Of a DNA stretch of 64,000 nucleotides, positions 15,001 through 39,000 are shown one piece after another; within the stretch, counting starts at the first letter, position 1, and every line of letters starts with the position of its first letter. Position numbers: made by a program. The stretch is from positions 94,798,001 to 94,862,000 of the forward strand of contig NC_088794.1 of assembly GCF_011386835.1 (NCBI RefSeq), written 5' to 3'. The DNA is from Chrysemys picta bellii. Lineage: Eukaryota.

Positions 15001-18000
15001 CAATTCTCCAGAGCAGCATTCAACTGCCTTAACCATAAGACCATCCCCTCTCTTTCTACCTTCCACTGCCTTTTTCAGTGTATGCTTTCCAACTTCTGCA
15101 ACAAATGAGGCTGGGTCCTATCGGCAATAGCCTCTTTCACTACACAACTCTGATTCATTGCCAAAGGATGTCTATCCTGTGCACTGACAGGAGGAAGGGG
15201 TTCCTGTGGAAAAAACAGAATGTGATCATGTAATTAAAGACTCTCCCAATGCATGCACACAAGGGGAATGAACTGACATTGCACAGGAAACCTTAATTCT
15301 GGCATTTCCTAACTTGAGTATTTGACTCTGCAAGGTTAATGTAGTTTGTGTATGTAGGTTCCTAGGTTTTTAAAAATCAAAATTCCATCATGTGGCATAT
15401 CAACACCCACACAGGTTAGCAGCAGTGTTGGAACCTTTACATCTACCACACCAACCTCTGCCAGTTCAGCTAACACAGTAACTGATTAGCAATAGTAGGG
15501 TCTCCTCCTTTCTGTGGACCAGTGCTAGATGGGGACTGGACACTCAGCCAGTGGGTTTCCCAGATATTAGCTGACAGCTGAGGAAAGCAATCTTGGGTTC
15601 CATTCCTGACTCTGGAGGAGACTGTTCTCTAATGGTCACAGACTCCTTTCCATCCCTTCTGTGTCTCAGTTCCATCTCTTCCCTGCTCCTAATCCCACTC
15701 CCATTTTCCTTACTTAGCCATTCCCAGTGTGCCCATCACCTCCAATCATTGTCCCAGTCTCCTTGTCCAAACAGTCCCACTTCTCCCACGTATACATGCT
15801 CGTTCCTTATCTGATCTCATTCCCCAGCTCCACTGATCTTCAGTTCCATTCTCCCTCACCACTCCAACTCCCAGTTTCAATTTCCCTCTCCCCCTTCAGT
15901 CCCAGTTTCTGTCCCCCTCTCCTGAGCTACCTGTCCTAATGACAGCTTTTGTTCCCTCTGCATTCAAATCAGGCAACTTCCTCCTATGCGTGGGGGTGGG
16001 GGTGCGTGGTGCGAGTACAGAATTACCCAATGCAGTCCAGAGCTACAATTGCATAGATAGTCCTGCCAACACTGTGCTGGAGCATGCCCAATGTGGACCA
16101 AATAGTCAGGGGATGTAGCTGCTAAAATCTATTGAAACTGAGCAAACTGTAATTTTTCAAAATGACTTAACTTGAACAAATTTGGGCAGATTTTCATAGG
16201 AAAGGCAAATGGCACATCCCTGACATAAAGGCCACCTGCCAAATTGTGTGCTAGAGATTTTCAAAGAAAAAGTCATCAGAAATGTTTTAAATGTGTGCAA
16301 AACAATGTACATTTCCCTAGCTGTGTTCTTGTAAATGGCTGAATCATTTGGGCTGAAGTTTTTCAAACTAATTCAGCCTGAGGCACATTAAAGTTTTGGC
16401 AGAGTTGTTTAGAACTCTGAAAACAAGGTCTTATAATGAGAAGGGTCAGGTAACCTTATTAGGCAGAACTACCCGTTCCACCTGAAACAACATGGCTACC
16501 TTCTAGCTTGTCTTTTTTTTCCCCCCCTAACAAATGACACACAATGAGGTTTCAGTGCATTCTCAGCCCGTGCTGCTTTATTGCTAAAAAAATTGTATAC
16601 AGGTGCAGAGTTTCCAAGTTCATTTTTAAACAGTTCCTCTTTACAGTGTCAAAAGAATAAAGTCTTTTCTTCAAATCCCCAAAGATGCATAGATATAAAA
16701 GCAAGCTGCCTTTTGGAAAACTTCAGCTATATACAGGGAGAAATTTTCAGTATAACCACATAAAACACACTATCCAATGGAGTAAATAGGTTCCAGTGTT
16801 GCCACTAAATTCCTTCTCTAATCTTTCCTGTGCATGGTCTATTGAATACAATAAAAATGTGATCATGCTATTAGACGTTCAGTATTCTCTAACCTAGTTT
16901 CCAAACTTAAGGACTAAACTTTTTTTTTTTTTAAAGGCATCTACTCTATCCCCTTCCTATGTTGGAGCTGAAGACCACCTTCAACATTTCTCCTCTGCTC
17001 TTCCACCATGCTCCTCAAAGAGATTATTTACAAGGAAGTTTTATTTCCTTTTTGTTTAGAAGGGAAATAAGTGTGTGTTTGTAAATACACTAACTGCTTA
17101 CCGCTCAGGCAATGTCTACACTACAAATACTACAGTGACAGAAAAAACTCTTCCATTGTTGTAATGTACACTACAGTTGTGCCACTGTAGTGTACATTAC
17201 AACAATGGAAGAGTTTTTTCTGTCACTGTAGTAACTCCACCAACTTGAATTCTTAACCTCGCTACTGTCACTCTTCTGTCTACCTAGCCATAGGGGGTTT
17301 ATGTCAGCATAGGTGCAACATTCAGGGGTGTAGATTTTTCACACCCTGAGTGTCGTTACTATGTTGACCTGAATTTTAAGTGCAGACCAGTCCTTATTTG
17401 TGGTGGTGGTGGTGGGGGGGGGGGGGGGAAGGGAGATACTAATGCAGGATTTTAAACTGAAGAGTAGTCCTGAAGGATGTCCAGTAGGGTTAAACATGTT
17501 TTAACTATTCCTTTTTGCCTACAGAAGTTGGCCCAGAGGAAAAATTTCAACCATATTCTGATACTATAAAATACAGTCATCACAGATTAAACCTTAATAT
17601 TCCCTTTTGCATTTGGCAACTACTGTATATCTAAAGAAAGAACAATGAGAAAAAAACATATGGCCCCCACACCAAGCCTGCAGTGTGGGTGTGCTTGTAT
17701 TACACTGGCTAAGAATGTAGACAGGTGTTAACTTGACCCATAAACCCTTCCTCTTGCCCCATTTTGTTTCTTCAAAGAAACAGGAGGGAATTTCTGACAG
17801 AGGGATTTTCACATAAACTAGGTCCTCCTGCAAAGTTAGATGTAGCCATAATAAGATAGAAGTAAGGAATCTCGCAAACTACTTGTCTCAGTCTGAGAGC
17901 TTCTATGAGTTTACATGCTTCAGTCTAGGAAAAGCAGCATTAGTTCTTGTGCTCTGCTACAGATACCATAACTTTTTTTTTTGTACATTCTCAGCAGAAA

Positions 18001-36000: not shown

Positions 36001-39000
36001 AATATGCACATACACACGTCCGAATCGTAATTTATTTACGTAGGGTTTGTTTTTTTTTGCAGATTCAACAATAAAAATTAGGTCCAGTAAAGAATAGAGA
36101 CAACTGTACATTAATAAAATAAAAACTCAAATAAGGTGTCAGATTACAATCATTACAATCAAATAAGGTGCTTTTCATGTTCTTGTCTTTTGTTATTATT
36201 TCTTTTGCTTTTTTTTTTGGTTGCTTTTTTTTTTTTTTTTTTTTTTTAAGACTTGCTAGCTAGTAAGTCTGCCGCTGTGAAAAGTGATATTTGTATGGTT
36301 GTTAATATCACCTTTCACAGCTCTCAACAAGCTACCAAGTCTGCTGTGGAAAGTGATATTAGCAACCATACAAATATCGATTTTCACAGCAAAGTCTTCT
36401 TAGACCTGGCAAGCCAAGGAACAAACTAAACTCTGGATGGGGAGGTAGGTAGGAGGCAGCAGGGGCCGGGGTGATGGGCAGTGGTGGTGAGCCTGTCATG
36501 TGGCTAGGGTCAAAGCCTGGAGCCTCATGGCTGTAGCCCAAAGCCCTGCAGCTAGGGCCTGGAGCCTGCAGACTATCACACCCAGGCTAAAGCCCAAAGC
36601 CTGAGCACCAATGCCCCCAGGAACTCACACTGGTTGCCTGCTCCTCTGGCATCTGTGGCTCCAGAGGGGGACAGGGCCCAATGCCTGCTGGCAGCCTTGG
36701 GGGAGGGGCCACTGTGTGGCCCCTTCCCCAGTCACCACCACCCAGGAGGCTGTGGCAGCAAGAAAAAGCCCTTGCTCGCCACATTTGAGACATGCTAGAC
36801 TAGATGACCCCATAGTCCCTTCTAACCCTATGATTCTATGAAAAACGTTCTTTTATCACATCAGAGCAAAGGCCTAGGTGCATAATTTAGTAAGTACATT
36901 GACCTTGGCAACAAGTTACAAATCTGGAAAAGGGGAAGCTTGTTTTTAAATAATATTGTATTAGGTGAATTTTCTCATTGTTTTTAGAATACTTTCCTGC
37001 TTGCGGTCTTCAATAATCATTTGGAAACTTGAAACTGAAATCAATTTTCTTGTTAACATTTCCCTCTCTCCAGGGTGCATAAAATCTCCTTTACTGCTGT
37101 AGGATTGCTTGTGAATCCTGACTTTGAATTTTTAAGCATCTGAAATCCATTCCCTTGTGTGCACCCCTCACACAATGCAACACGCTCACAAAAAAAATAG
37201 AGGAAGAAAAAATAGATCAAGTCATCAATTTAACAGAGTTCCGCTAAGATCCAGACTTCATGAATCTTTTAATAGTGTAATTTTCAGTCCTCTCTCTATT
37301 TTTATAATCTGAAATAGTCAGCACTCTTTTCACCAGTTGAATAGACTAAATTCAAATTATGGGTTTTGATTTTTCTGCCACATGCACATCCACAGTTGCA
37401 GCTGTTCTCTGAACATAAATTATAGCTGATTTACTATGCAGGAAATATGTTCTTTTAACCATCTGCTGCAGCCTACTAAGAACTCTGTATCTAATGCATT
37501 ACTCTGGGTTATCCATACTTCCAGCGTCTCTAAAGTTATTCAGATTTCTTCAGGGTGTATTCGAGCTCTCCTCATTCAGACAGACTTGAATTCAGCACCC
37601 TTTAAACCAGCACTCCTAACTATTTCTGCTATGGTTTTCTACGAACCCTTGAACTACAGTAATATTAAAGTACAACAGTGACAAGCCCAAAGATAGACAG
37701 ACGATATAAACCACAGCAGACGGGTAGCTTCTGGAGGAGCATTATCAACTTGAGTAAACTACCGTGTGTGTGTGTGTAACATTCAGATACGGGGAATCTA
37801 ATTAAACACTCCCCCTGGAATGCTGAGGCTCCAGTTTTGGAGCATCGCTAATGCACACAGTCTGCCAGGCCCAATCCGATTCGGGGGGTTGAGGGAGTGG
37901 GGATGAGATGGTGAGGAGGGGGCACGCAGACACCCATCCCAATCAGGGGAACACCGTACACACAAACACACACACGGCGCGGGAGGGGACTGGAGACAAC
38001 GAAGACGTACGTGCCCAGGCCCAGCGCGCTCAGGGATTAAAGGTGGGGGGCAGGTACTTAACCTGAGCGAGTACCAGCCGGAATTCGAACACGGCCAGGC
38101 CCAGCCCAATCAGGGTGCAGGAAGGGGAGGCGGGTACACACACACATACGTACCCGGGCCCAGCCCAAGCAGGGAGCGGTGAGGTCCCGCCACTAGCCAG
38201 GCTCAGTCTCGCTCCTCAAGCAGTCGTTCCCCGCTCCGTTTACCTGCCCCTGGCCGAGGCCGCCGGGCCGCGGCCGGCCCTCTCCCCTCAGCCTCCTCCT
38301 CTCACTCCGCCATCTTCCCCCGCTCACCTCGACCACCCGGCTGGGGGCTCAGGCGCCCGCCGCCTCCAGCCCCACCCACTCGAGAGCTAACCTATCGGGC
38401 ACCGCGTCGTCATCCTTCCGCCTTCGACGAGCATTGGTCAGTGGACGCATCCGTCAGAGGTACTTGGCGCCCGCCTGCAAAACTCTCTCCTCTGATTGGT
38501 CAGAAGAGGAACACCCTTTGGCGAAAGTATTGGTTACCCCGTGGGATAAGACCTCCCCTCTCACTCATTCTCTCACCCCTCCCCCGCACCTATATTTAAA
38601 GGGGCCGTTTCGAATTAAACGTGTGTTCCTGTGACTGCGATTCCAGCTGGCTGGCGCGTGGGAAAGGCACCGGGGGCGGGGCGGGGCGGGGCGGCACCGC
38701 TACTGGGGAGCGAGGTCATAGGACCGGAGCCCAGCCCTTACCGGAGGCGTCGAAGGTTATGGCGCCCCCCTCACCCAAGGCTGTTTTACCGCGAAAGCCC
38801 CACGCTGCCTAGAGCACGTGGAGCCAGCCCCGGGGGACCTGAGCTGTTCGCCCGCATGGGATTTGAACGTGTAGTACCACTAGCAGCGCCTGCCCCACCT
38901 TATCAGCTGGGACAGACATCCCGGAGCCGTCCTGGCAGCTAGGCCCGTATTCCCCTCAGTGATAATACGAGGGAGGGGTAAAATTATGCGCACTTGTGCC

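What the first reader, a model, noticed from the sequence alone, without database searches (positions are those of the whole stretch)
16558..38340. Predicted 3-exon, roughly 22-kb non-coding gene model from the orphan CpG island
Seen: a CpG island with no associated coding exon, a minus-strand donor at 38244, a candidate exon at 28397-28200 with a consensus donor, a very strong acceptor at 26488 and a poly(A) signal at 16577. Established: Cyrano has short 5' exons and one very long last exon. Inference: the mature RNA is about 10.2 kb, with the miR-7 site about 2.9 kb into the last exon.
Basis: inference. Interest (0 to 1): 0.65.

Follow-up and report, generated by a model that had tools for sequence, protein, structure and literature searches.

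The report
Cyrano lncRNA gene, ends confirmed

Summary
The locus is the orthologue of Cyrano/OIP5-AS1. It lies downstream of CHP1 on the same strand and converges on a Yippee-Mis18 (OIP5-like) gene. It carries the miR-7 site paired everywhere except opposite miRNA nucleotides 9-10.

The Cyrano elements that PMC7798263 names as conserved across vertebrates all occur in the published order and spacing, and the combination is found only once. These are the 5' AUGGCG with a 3-codon ORF, UGUGCAAUA, the miR-7 site, UGUAUAG, WGCAUGA, and CUAUGCA about 100 nt before the GCAAUAAA poly(A) signal. They fix the 5' end near 38.33 kb and the 3' end at 16,577. They also fit a total of about 10.2 kb and a site 2,927 nt into the last exon.

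The internal splicing is not settled. Donor 38244 has an equal rival at 38154. Exon 2 is one of 7-13 candidates. In my calibration, splice-site strength failed to pick out the real CHP1 exons.

The gene is already known and interest is low. No RNA data or vertebrate genomes were available. Exons were examined one by one and never joined.

The parts
38041..39041 (-). CpG-island promoter. Read on the minus strand it holds four tandem GC boxes (CCGCCC, 38694-38674) and three CCAAT boxes (38533-38529, 38499-38495, 38437-38433). There is no TATAAA.
   Evidence: The transcription-factor assignments (Sp1, NF-Y) are from general knowledge and were not tested.
38302..38316 (-). 5' landmark of Cyrano: AAGATGGCGG (38316-38307), with the ORF ATG GCG GAG TGA (M-A-E-stop, 38313-38302). 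PMC7798263 describes AUGGCG at the very 5' end, a 2-3 aa ORF and a TISU/YY1 element.
   Evidence: the only AAGATGGCGG in the window on either strand, and the translation MAE*. Paper passages.
38244..38340 (-). Proposed exon 1. The TSS is not determined and is inferred to lie a few to about 30 nt upstream of the ATG at 38313. The donor is CAG|GTAAAC at 38244, with an equally scored alternative CGG|GTACGT at 38154.
   Evidence: PWM scores are 3.44 and 3.79, and both match the consensus at 7 of 9 positions. The stronger donor at 38328 (GAG|GTGAGC, rank 2 of 1832) lies upstream of the conserved ATGGCG, so it cannot serve transcripts that contain it.
28200..28397 (-). Proposed exon 2 (198 nt): a candidate only.
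   Evidence: sequence. Acceptor: 16 of 20 pyrimidines. Donor: 8 of 9 consensus matches. It is 5th of 7 by PWM sum and the sole top-tier pair in the interval, but the calibration failed. No ORF of more than 53 aa overlaps it.
16558..26488 (-). Terminal exon, 9,931 nt, non-coding.
   Evidence: Acceptor. Length. The longest sense ORF is 94 aa, and 0 of 5 sense ORFs of at least 60 aa hit Pfam at E<=0.1. No Rfam family reaches its gathering score.
23644..23652 (-). UGUGCAAUA, the miR-25/92 seed match. Its last base (23644) lies 65 nt upstream of the first base of the miR-7 site (23578).
   Evidence: the only copy on the minus strand. PMC7798263 places it about 60 nt upstream.
23554..23578 (-). miR-7 degradation (TDMD) site: ACAACAAAATCAC-CAAT-GTCTTCCA.
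   Evidence: The perfect miR-7-5p complement printed in PMC6026446 is ACAACAAAATCAC-TA-GTCTTCCA. All miRNA positions therefore pair except 9-10, as described for Cyrano (bioRxiv 10.1101/279687).
23478..23543 (-). Pumilio element UGUAUAG (23543-23537) and Rbfox element UGCAUGA (23484-23478), 59 nt apart start to start.
   Evidence: PMC7798263 gives about 55 nt.
16577..16692 (-). 3' module: CUAUGCA (miR-153 seed match, 16692-16686) 108 nt upstream of GCAAUAAA (poly(A) signal and miR-137 site, 16584-16577). Cleavage is inferred near 16558.
   Evidence: PMC7798263 says CUAUGCA lies about 100 nt upstream of the PAS GCAAUAAA at the 3' end of Cyrano.
42692..51514 (-). Upstream neighbour CHP1. Coding exons lie at about 51.3, 48.8, 47.6, 46.2 and 44.7 kb, with the stop codon at 44660-44658. 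Its likely own poly(A) signal is AATAAA at 42697-42692.
   Evidence: ORF pieces; PDB: Calcineurin B homologous protein 1, 7dsv_D, E 7.5e-08; poly(A) hexamers.
1174..8688 (+). Convergent neighbour, OIP5-like. The Yippee-Mis18 exon is at 1174-1302. The next exon (about 2.35-2.44 kb), the last coding exon (7514-7672) and AATAAA at 8683-8688 were identified by eye only.
   Evidence: PF03226, E 6.6e-08, 33.1 bits against a cutoff of 26.6. PDB searches of two of these ORFs found nothing.

Best explanation
The finding is the orthologue of the long non-coding RNA Cyrano (OIP5-AS1 in human, Oip5os1/1700020I14Rik in mouse) in a vertebrate that is neither a primate nor a mouse-like rodent.

Gene structure:
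- Transcription starts in the CpG island, just upstream of the conserved AAGATGGCGG element at 38316-38307.
- One or two short 5' exons are spliced to a roughly 9.9-kb terminal exon, most likely at acceptor 26488.
- The RNA ends at the conserved GCAAUAAA signal at 16584-16577.

Function, inferred from work in mouse and human cells and not tested here:
- The 25-nt site at 23578-23554 binds Argonaute-loaded miR-7 through the seed and the whole 3' half, leaving only nucleotides 9-10 unpaired.
- This geometry prevents slicing. It is recognised by the ZSWIM8 cullin-RING ligase, so Argonaute is degraded and miR-7 is destroyed.
- The neighbouring conserved sites for miR-25/92, Pumilio and Rbfox, and the miR-153 and miR-137 sites at the 3' end, regulate Cyrano itself.

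Shown here: the sequence features, their order and spacing, the synteny and the lack of coding potential. Inferred: the TSS, all splice junctions, the cleavage site, expression and function.
For: Synteny:
- CHP1 exons lie on the same strand upstream.
- A Yippee-Mis18 exon lies on the opposite strand downstream.

miR-7 site: it is identical to the printed perfect complement of miR-7-5p except that CAAT replaces TA opposite positions 9-10. This matches the published description.

Conserved elements: every Cyrano element named in the PMC7798263 passages I read is present on the minus strand, in order.
- ATGGCG at 38313, with an M-A-E-stop ORF.
- TGTGCAATA, a single copy on the minus strand.
- The core cluster TGTGCAATA...GTCTTCCA...TGTATAG...WGCATGA, found once (175 nt) and not on the plus strand.
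- CTATGCA 108 nt before GCAATAAA, a pairing unique in the window.

Promoter: a CpG island with 4 GC boxes, 3 CCAAT boxes and the unique AAGATGGCGG.

Acceptor 26488: rank 2 of 2300.

Non-coding: the longest sense ORF in the last exon is 94 aa, with 0 of 5 Pfam hits. Only a 52-aa ORF lies in the CpG island.

CHP1 has its own AATAAA plus a GU-rich element 1,963 nt after its stop codon. That is about 4.3 kb before the Cyrano 5' element.

Length and architecture agree with the literature:
- 3-4 exons and 4.6-8.7 kb in zebrafish, mouse and human (PMC7430676).
- Up to 10,155 nt in opossum (PMC7798263).
- The site lies in the first half of the terminal exon (10.1101/279687).

Mechanism: PMC10899785 passages.
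Against: - No RNA evidence of any kind and no orthologous nucleotide sequence could be consulted. The TSS, the junctions and the cleavage site are therefore predictions.
- Donor 38244 is only rank 35 of 1832 and has an equal rival at 38154.
- Exon 2 is not distinguishable from chance pseudo-exons.
- 18 AATAAA/ATTAAA hexamers lie on the sense strand within the proposed last exon, so shorter isoforms are possible.
- The 136-nt core folds no better than shuffles: z +0.59, and 145 of 200 shuffles fold at least as well. The published cloverleaf got no independent support here.
- GCATG enrichment in the last exon (20 against 7.5 in shuffles, 0 of 1000 reaching 20) is weakened because other same-strand windows reach 17.
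- The OIP5-like gene appears to end about 7.8 kb away, so the antisense overlap that gives the human gene its name is not seen in this model. The last OIP5 exon was identified by eye only.
Confidence: 0.88

Rival explanations
1. It is the same gene with a different splice pattern from the reader's. Possibilities include exon 1 ending at 38154; another or an additional internal exon (for example 30000-29794, 31403-31146/31240, 27453-27213 or 27008-26912), giving 4 exons as in human; or no internal exon at all, giving 2 exons.
For: -: donors 38244 and 38154 score 3.44 and 3.79.
- 9-13 candidates at relaxed thresholds.
- real CHP1 exons have donors matching 6-7 of 9 and acceptors with fewer than 12 up to 17 pyrimidines, so weaker-looking sites are perfectly usable.
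- Human Cyrano has 4 exons (PMC7430676).
Against: At the strictest consensus thresholds, 28397-28200 is the only pair in the interval. Mouse and zebrafish have 3 exons. Nothing here positively supports any one alternative.
Confidence: 0.5
2. The long exon is a read-through or 3' extension of CHP1, and the CpG island is not its promoter.
For: Same strand and immediately downstream of CHP1. Read-through cannot be excluded without RNA data.
Against: - CHP1 has a canonical AATAAA with a GU-rich downstream element at 42697-42692.
- The CpG island carries oriented GC and CCAAT boxes and the AAGATGGCGG/3-codon ORF. PMC7798263 places that element at the very 5' end of Cyrano in at least 17 species, with YY1 binding and ribosome footprints.
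- A rank-2 acceptor at 26488 needs an upstream donor.
Confidence: 0.03
3. The main 3' end lies elsewhere. It could be a proximal site, for example ATTAAA at 23307-23302 with a U-rich downstream region, or AATAAA at 17045-17040. Alternatively the transcript could extend beyond 16.5 kb to overlap the OIP5-like gene, as in human.
For: - 18 hexamers lie in the exon.
- A 4.2-kb polyadenylated human isoform exists (PMC7430676).
- The human gene is named for its overlap with OIP5.
- GCATG stays frequent on the minus strand below 16 kb.
Against: The conserved CUAUGCA - about 100 nt - GCAAUAAA module is unique and sits at 16692-16577. The next sense-strand hexamer is 2.1 kb further on.
Confidence: 0.1
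4. There is no gene here: the signals are a chance collection in intergenic DNA.
For: The individual splice signals are not beyond chance.
Against: The ordered set of literature-defined elements, the 25-nt miR-7 site and the synteny.
Confidence: 0.01

Closest known systems
Cyrano / OIP5-AS1 (human) / Oip5os1, 1700020I14Rik (mouse) / cyrano (zebrafish)
   Same: - Position between CHP1 and OIP5.
- A CpG-island start with an AUGGCG mini-ORF.
- Short 5' exon(s) and a very long terminal exon.
- The miR-7 site unpaired only at miRNA nucleotides 9-10.
- Flanking miR-25/92, Pumilio and Rbfox elements.
- A miR-153 site about 100 nt before the GCAAUAAA signal (papers).
   Different: - The predicted RNA of about 10.2 kb is longer than mouse (8,300), human (8,706) or zebrafish (4,606). 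It sits just above the top of the published range of 10,155 nt.
- No overlap with the OIP5-like gene is predicted.
- A perfect 50-bp palindrome lies in the terminal exon.
- The mouse 'second seed site at the beginning of exon 3' has no counterpart in the first 1.1 kb. The nearest 7-mer sites are at 1,107 and 1,402 nt.
Other TDMD trigger RNAs (libra/NREP for miR-29, HSUR1 for miR-27)
   Same: A single, extensively 3'-paired site in a longer RNA that triggers ZSWIM8-dependent loss of the miRNA (PMC10899785; PMC7798263).
   Different: They act on a different miRNA, sit in a different locus and have no sequence relation. This is a comparison of mechanism only.
Cdr1as/ciRS-7
   Same: Part of the same miR-7 network (10.1101/279687, abstract and passages).
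   Different: It is circular and has many seed-type miR-7 sites rather than one extensively paired site. It is not in this window.

Membership tests
Cyrano (OIP5-AS1) orthologue | Lies between CHP1 and OIP5, on the CHP1 strand and convergent with OIP5. This arrangement is recalled from the human and mouse maps. | tested here: met
   CHP1 exons are on the minus strand at 44.7-51.5 kb. A Yippee-Mis18 exon is on the plus strand at 1174-1302. The identification as OIP5 rather than another Yippee-family gene rests on reading by eye.
Cyrano (OIP5-AS1) orthologue | A site pairing to all miR-7 nucleotides except 9 and 10, in the terminal exon. | tested here: met
   (comparison with the printed perfect complement); description. 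The 'terminal exon' part depends on the predicted acceptor.
Cyrano (OIP5-AS1) orthologue | The ordered conserved elements of PMC7798263: AUGGCG, UGUGCAAUA, the miR-7 5' and 3' pairing elements, UGUAUAG, WGCAUGA, CUAUGCA and GCAAUAAA. | tested here: met
   all eight named elements are present in order, with spacings of 65, 59 and 108 nt against the published ~60, ~55 and ~100. The paper counts nine elements; one of them is not named in the passages I read, so it was not tested.
Cyrano (OIP5-AS1) orthologue | A 2-3-codon ORF beginning at AUGGCG at the very 5' end, in a TISU/YY1 context. | tested here: met
   ATG GCG GAG TGA, and AAGATGGCGG unique in the window. YY1 binding and the true 5' end are not testable here.
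Cyrano (OIP5-AS1) orthologue | No protein-coding capacity. | tested here: met
   Exons were examined one by one; ORFs spanning junctions were not examined because exons were not joined.
Cyrano (OIP5-AS1) orthologue | A spliced transcript of 3-4 exons with one very long last exon. | not testable with these tools
   Only splice-signal scans were possible, and the calibration on CHP1 shows they are weak.
Cyrano (OIP5-AS1) orthologue | A cloverleaf of about 100 nt masking the miR-7 site (PMC7430676). | tested here: inconclusive
   the MFE is -21.9 kcal/mol with z +0.59. A hairpin with a 4-nt loop does cover the start of the site. However, a single sequence without probing data or an alignment cannot test the cloverleaf.
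TDMD trigger | ZSWIM8-dependent loss of the miRNA when the site is intact. | not testable with these tools
   Function is taken from the literature.

The most novel reading that the evidence does not exclude
In this species the Cyrano terminal exon has taken up a perfect 50-bp palindrome at 17233-17128. It has a 6-nt loop, dG -88.6 kcal/mol and z -16.8. It is flanked by TA and begins CAGTG, so it is probably a Tc1/mariner-type miniature element; that rule is recalled, not tested. It lies about 0.55-0.65 kb upstream of the conserved miR-153/poly(A) module.

If it is transcribed as part of an abundant cytoplasmic RNA, it would be a long perfect double-stranded hairpin open to Dicer, ADAR or dsRNA sensors. 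One arm carries a miR-7 7mer-A1 match (17212). The other carries the heptamer UGGAAGA, which equals miR-7 nucleotides 1-7 as printed in PMC6182166. Processing could therefore yield a small RNA with the miR-7 seed from the very RNA that destroys miR-7.
Probability: 0.03. Interest if true: 0.45.

Novelty: already known. Interest (0 to 1): 0.12.

Why it matters
Cyrano is one of the few lncRNAs with a proven molecular mechanism, and it is conserved from fish to mammals. Finding it here is expected.

The practical value is an annotation. The start (about 38.33 kb), the miR-7 degradation site (23578-23554) and the end (poly(A) signal at 16577) can be placed with confidence from published motif landmarks alone. 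That approach could annotate Cyrano in any unannotated vertebrate genome.

The work also shows that splice-site strength by itself should not be trusted to place small lncRNA exons.

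Tried and rejected
- Rfam at gathering thresholds over the whole window found 0 families. In E-value mode over 16000-39500 there were 28 sub-threshold matches, none reaching its family's score. The best ones are generic hairpin matches to two palindromes.
- ARAGORN found 0 tRNA-like genes, so it gave no SINE clue to the taxon.
- A PDB search with a whole translated frame was rejected by the tool because of stop codons. I then sent single ORFs. The CHP1 piece matched. The two OIP5-like ORFs gave 0 hits. Pfam then placed one of them in Yippee-Mis18, while the other two gave only weak unrelated matches.
- Folding the core gave no support for a stable structure.
- The window self-BLAST gave only 21 non-self HSPs, so candidate exons could not be sorted by repeat content.
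- ORFs in the GC-rich block at 31.2-32.3 kb are open in several frames on both strands. I judged this to be a composition effect rather than a gene and did not send them to Pfam.
- Ulitsky 2011 (PMC3376356) and the journal version of Kleaveland 2018 (PMC6559361) are not held, so the bioRxiv version was used. PMC7363876 added nothing on gene structure.
- The 26-nt core is not printed in PMC7430676 or PMC11662681.
- Supplements are closed. Table S1 of PMC7798263 (curated Cyrano sequences of 18 species) and its list of 37 mammal-wide motifs would bear directly on exon 2 and were not seen.
- The spliced RNA was not assembled or searched as one piece; only single exons and genomic stretches were used.
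- I do not take the window for human: 0 matches to two Alu motifs and one B1 motif within 3 mismatches. No contig was fetched.

Full report
**What was checked first.** The window has no N and is all upper case. Reading the minus strand confirmed each item of the finding.
- A CpG island at 38041-39041: 1001 bp, GC 0.624, 73 CpG, obs/exp 0.76.
- A donor CAG|GTAAAC with last exon base 38244.
- A candidate exon 28397-28200, bounded by ...ctcttttcctag|T and AAGG|GTAAGT.
- An acceptor ...ttttgtgttttcag|G with first exon base 26488.
- AATAAA at 16582-16577, followed by a GU-rich stretch.

The miR-7 8-mer seed match on the minus strand lies at 23561-23554. That is 2,927 nt into an exon beginning at 26488 and 9,931 nt long if it ends at 16558.

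**Source organism.** Two Alu motifs and one B1 motif gave 0 matches within 3 mismatches in 64 kb. I therefore do not take the window for human, another primate or a mouse-like rodent. ARAGORN found no tRNA-like elements, and the window has almost no internal repeats, with 21 non-self HSPs. The species stays unknown. The CHP1 exons are close to the mammalian PDB sequences, which fits an amniote, but that is all I can say. No contig was fetched at any point.

**Identity of the locus: neighbours.** On the minus strand upstream of the CpG island, ORF pieces read as CHP1 exons at about 51.3, 48.8, 47.6, 46.2 and 44.7 kb, ending ...IRFLH-stop at 44660-44658. One piece matches Calcineurin B homologous protein 1 in the PDB (7dsv_D, E 7.5e-08). 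On the plus strand at the low end, an ORF matches Pfam Yippee-Mis18 at 1174-1302 (E 6.6e-08, 33.1 bits against a cutoff of 26.6). Two further exons, at about 2.35-2.44 kb and 7514-7672, look like the rest of OIP5/Mis18-alpha by eye only, and PDB searches of two of these ORFs found nothing. CHP1, then the candidate gene, then a convergent OIP5 is the arrangement I recall for Cyrano in human and mouse.

**Identity of the locus: the miR-7 site.** The site at 23578-23554 reads ACAACAAAATCAC-CAAT-GTCTTCCA. The perfect complement of miR-7-5p printed in PMC6026446 (one passage) is ACAACAAAATCAC-TA-GTCTTCCA. The window site therefore pairs to every miRNA position except 9 and 10, with four target bases opposite two miRNA bases. 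This is the architecture described for Cyrano in bioRxiv 10.1101/279687 (section 5 part 1). PMC11662681 describes it as an asymmetric central bulge (passages).

**Landmarks that fix the two ends.** PMC7798263 (passages) lists elements conserved in order in Cyrano of at least 17 of 18 vertebrates:
- AUGGCG at the very 5' end, starting a 2-3-codon ORF in a TISU/YY1 context.
- UGUGCAAUA, about 60 nt upstream of the miR-7 site.
- The two miR-7 pairing elements.
- UGUAUAG, a Pumilio element.
- WGCAUGA, an Rbfox element, about 55 nt further on.
- CUAUGCA, a miR-153 match, about 100 nt upstream of the poly(A) signal GCAAUAAA at the 3' end.

One search finds all of them on the minus strand in that order:
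- ATGGCG at 38313-38308.
- TGTGCAATA at 23652-23644, the only minus-strand copy.
- GTCTTCCA at 23561-23554.
- TGTATAG at 23543-23537.
- TGCATGA at 23484-23478.
- CTATGCA at 16692-16686.
- GCAATAAA at 16584-16577.

The four-element core cluster occurs once (175 nt) and not on the plus strand. CTATGCA lying 60-160 nt before GCAATAAA occurs once on the minus strand and never on the plus strand. Single short motifs are individually common: for example 5 CTATGCA and 4 ATGGCG on the minus strand. The argument rests on the combination and the order. At the 5' end, AAGATGGCGG is unique in the window, and the ORF is ATG GCG GAG TGA, reading M-A-E-stop. Upstream of it, on the same strand, are three CCAAT boxes and four tandem CCGCCC boxes, with no TATAAA. 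So are the estimates of about 10.2 kb and about 2.9 kb, provided 26488 is the acceptor.

**The internal structure is not established.**
- With a crude PWM built from recalled, approximate frequencies, on the minus strand of 7000-39000 (1832 GT, 2300 AG), acceptor 26488 ranks 2, donor 28200 ranks 8, donor 38244 ranks 35 and acceptor 28397 ranks 64.
- With assumption-light counts, 38244 matches the donor consensus at 7 of 9 positions, and 69 of 1832 GT do as well or better. Donor 28200 matches at 8 of 9 (10 of 1832). Acceptor 26488 has 17 of 20 pyrimidines (13 of 1176 YAG do as well or better), and 28397 has 16 of 20 (35 of 1176).
- Downstream of the ATGGCG, donors 38244 (3.44) and 38154 (3.79) are equivalent.
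- The stronger donor at 38328 lies upstream of the conserved ATGGCG, so it cannot be the exon-1 donor of transcripts that contain it.
- Pairs of top quality number 9 on the minus and 6 on the plus strand in 64 kb. By my arithmetic, about 1.4 would be expected by chance in the 11.75-kb interval.
- As a calibration, 0 of the 4 internal CHP1 coding exons reach the top tier. Their donors match 6-7 of 9 and their acceptors have fewer than 12 up to 17 pyrimidines. None of the 9 top-tier minus-strand pairs is a CHP1 coding exon.

Splice-site strength therefore neither supports nor excludes exon 2. Published orthologues have 3 exons in mouse (8,300 nt) and zebrafish (4,606 nt) and 4 in human (8,706 nt) (PMC7430676, passages). 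Some small internal exon is therefore likely, but which one needs RNA evidence.

**Support for acceptor 26488.** Beyond its strength, support is indirect. [quoted passage not shown] In human, a stem-loop of the 600-nt domain that holds the site is at about nucleotide 2835 of the transcript (PMC7430676). The model here places the site about 3,220 nt from the 5' end.

**The 3' end.** There are 36 AATAAA/ATTAAA hexamers on the minus strand between 26488 and 6000, and 18 of them lie at or above 16577. The hexamer alone would therefore not identify the end. The conserved CUAUGCA/GCAAUAAA pair does. The next sense hexamer is 2.1 kb further on, at 14481. Shorter isoforms remain possible. For example, ATTAAA at 23307-23302, just past the core, has a U-rich downstream region, and a 4.2-kb polyadenylated isoform exists in human.

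**Non-coding nature.** In the last exon there are 11 ORFs of at least 60 aa on both strands, 5 of them on the sense strand, and the longest sense ORF is 94 aa. 0 of those 5 match Pfam at E<=0.1. The CpG-island region has one ORF of at least 40 aa, of 52 aa on the plus strand. Exon 2 is overlapped by 3 ORFs of at least 20 aa, the longest being 53 aa and running into the intron. Rfam gave no family at gathering score. ORFs that would span junctions were not examined because exons were not joined.

**Read-through rival.** CHP1 has its own AATAAA at 42697-42692, 1,963 nt after its stop codon. It is the only AATAAA among the 8 hexamers between the stop codon and the island, and it has a GU-rich downstream element. 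That is about 4.3 kb upstream of the Cyrano 5' element. Together with the promoter features and the published 5' landmark, this makes read-through an unlikely origin, although only RNA data can exclude it.

**How it most likely works.** This is taken from the literature, not tested here. Cyrano is a mainly cytoplasmic RNA whose extensively paired site causes multiple-turnover destruction of mature miR-7. Loss of Cyrano raised miR-7 up to 40-47-fold in mouse cerebellum (10.1101/279687). The trigger-bound Argonaute-miRNA complex is recognised by the ZSWIM8 cullin-RING ligase, Argonaute is degraded and the miRNA is lost (PMC10899785, passages). The other conserved sites are proposed to regulate Cyrano itself (PMC7798263). 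PMC7430676 reports a conserved cloverleaf masking the site. My single-sequence fold of 136 nt was no more stable than shuffles (z +0.59, 145 of 200 fold at least as well), so this remains untested here.

**Differences from the described orthologues.**
- The predicted RNA is longer than those of mouse, human and zebrafish. It sits at the top of the published range of 2,340-10,155 nt, the maximum being opossum. I draw no conclusion about the species from that.
- The OIP5-like gene seems to end near 8.7 kb (AATAAA at 8683-8688), about 7.8 kb from the Cyrano end. No antisense overlap is predicted. This rests on an exon identified by eye.
- The terminal exon contains a perfect palindrome (see the items noticed in passing).
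- GCATG is enriched in the exon: 20 against 7.5 in shuffles, with 0 of 1000 shuffles reaching 20. Other same-strand windows reach 17, so this is weak. WGCATGA occurs 4 times against 1.3 expected (42 of 1000), and PRE-like TGTANATA 3 times against 1.4 (176 of 1000).

**Verdict.** The exact three-exon splice pattern is a reasonable but unproven guess. The gene is already known, so interest is low.

**What stayed unchecked.**
- RNA evidence of any kind.
- Any vertebrate genome or transcript comparison, since none is on hand.
- The closed collections metagenome contigs and viral contigs.
- Paper supplements, notably Table S1 and the mammal-wide motif list of PMC7798263.
- Ulitsky 2011 and the journal version of Kleaveland 2018, which are not held.

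Noticed in passing
window 17128-17233 (inside the proposed last exon): A perfect palindrome with a roughly 50-bp stem and a 6-nt loop: dG -88.6 kcal/mol, z -16.8, 0 of 200 shuffles as stable. It matches several miRNA-hairpin Rfam families on both strands below their thresholds, the best being 66.6 bits against a gathering score of 100. It is flanked by TA and starts CAGTG, which suggests a Tc1/mariner-type miniature element (a recalled rule). There is no other copy in the window. One arm carries a miR-7 7mer-A1 match and the other carries UGGAAGA.
   Followed up: partly
window 36259-36404 (intron 1): A second long, imperfect hairpin: dG -73.9 kcal/mol, z -10.9. It also draws sub-threshold miRNA-family matches on both strands and is probably another palindromic repeat.
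   Followed up: partly
window 26697-26894, 40394-40624, 41794-41995: A dispersed repeat of about 200 bp with terminal inverted repeats (ACACCTCTACCCCGATATAACG...), 82-88% alike between copies. One copy sits in intron 2, about 200 nt upstream of acceptor 26488. Two sit between CHP1 and the CpG island.
   Followed up: no
window 7514-8688 (+) versus 16558 (-): The OIP5-like last coding exon (acceptor ...ttccttctag|CTGAAAG, stop codon 7670-7672) and the first plus-strand AATAAA (8683-8688) lie about 7.8 kb from the Cyrano poly(A) signal. The antisense overlap that names the human gene is therefore not predicted here. The exon was identified by eye only, and PDB and Pfam gave no support for it.
   Followed up: partly
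window 38328, 38577, 38742, 38899 (minus strand): Strong donor-like sites lie inside the CpG island upstream of the conserved ATGGCG. Site 38328 (GAG|GTGAGC) is rank 2 of 1832. They could serve transcripts from an upstream start, if one exists.
   Followed up: no
window 31150-32500: A GC-richer block that is open in several frames on both strands. It has a cluster of 8-of-9 donor matches at 32464, 31947, 31240 and 31146 and a local duplication, 31397-31488 against 31599-31687, at 80% identity. Its nature is unknown. It is the source of several alternative exon candidates.
   Followed up: no
window 40881-41181: A small CGI-like segment: 301 bp, GC 0.555, obs/exp 0.69. It overlaps a 67-nt inverted repeat, 41027-41093 against 41103-41169, and lies between CHP1's likely poly(A) site and the Cyrano promoter.
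   Followed up: no
window 23302-23307 (minus strand): An ATTAAA with a strongly U/GU-rich downstream region lies about 250 nt past the miR-7 site. It is a candidate proximal poly(A) site for a short isoform, as reported for human (4.2 kb).
   Followed up: no
window about 100-16000 (minus strand): GCATG stays frequent, at 13-17 per 9.9 kb, on the minus strand below the predicted Cyrano end. This may be a composition effect or a hint of longer transcripts.
   Followed up: no
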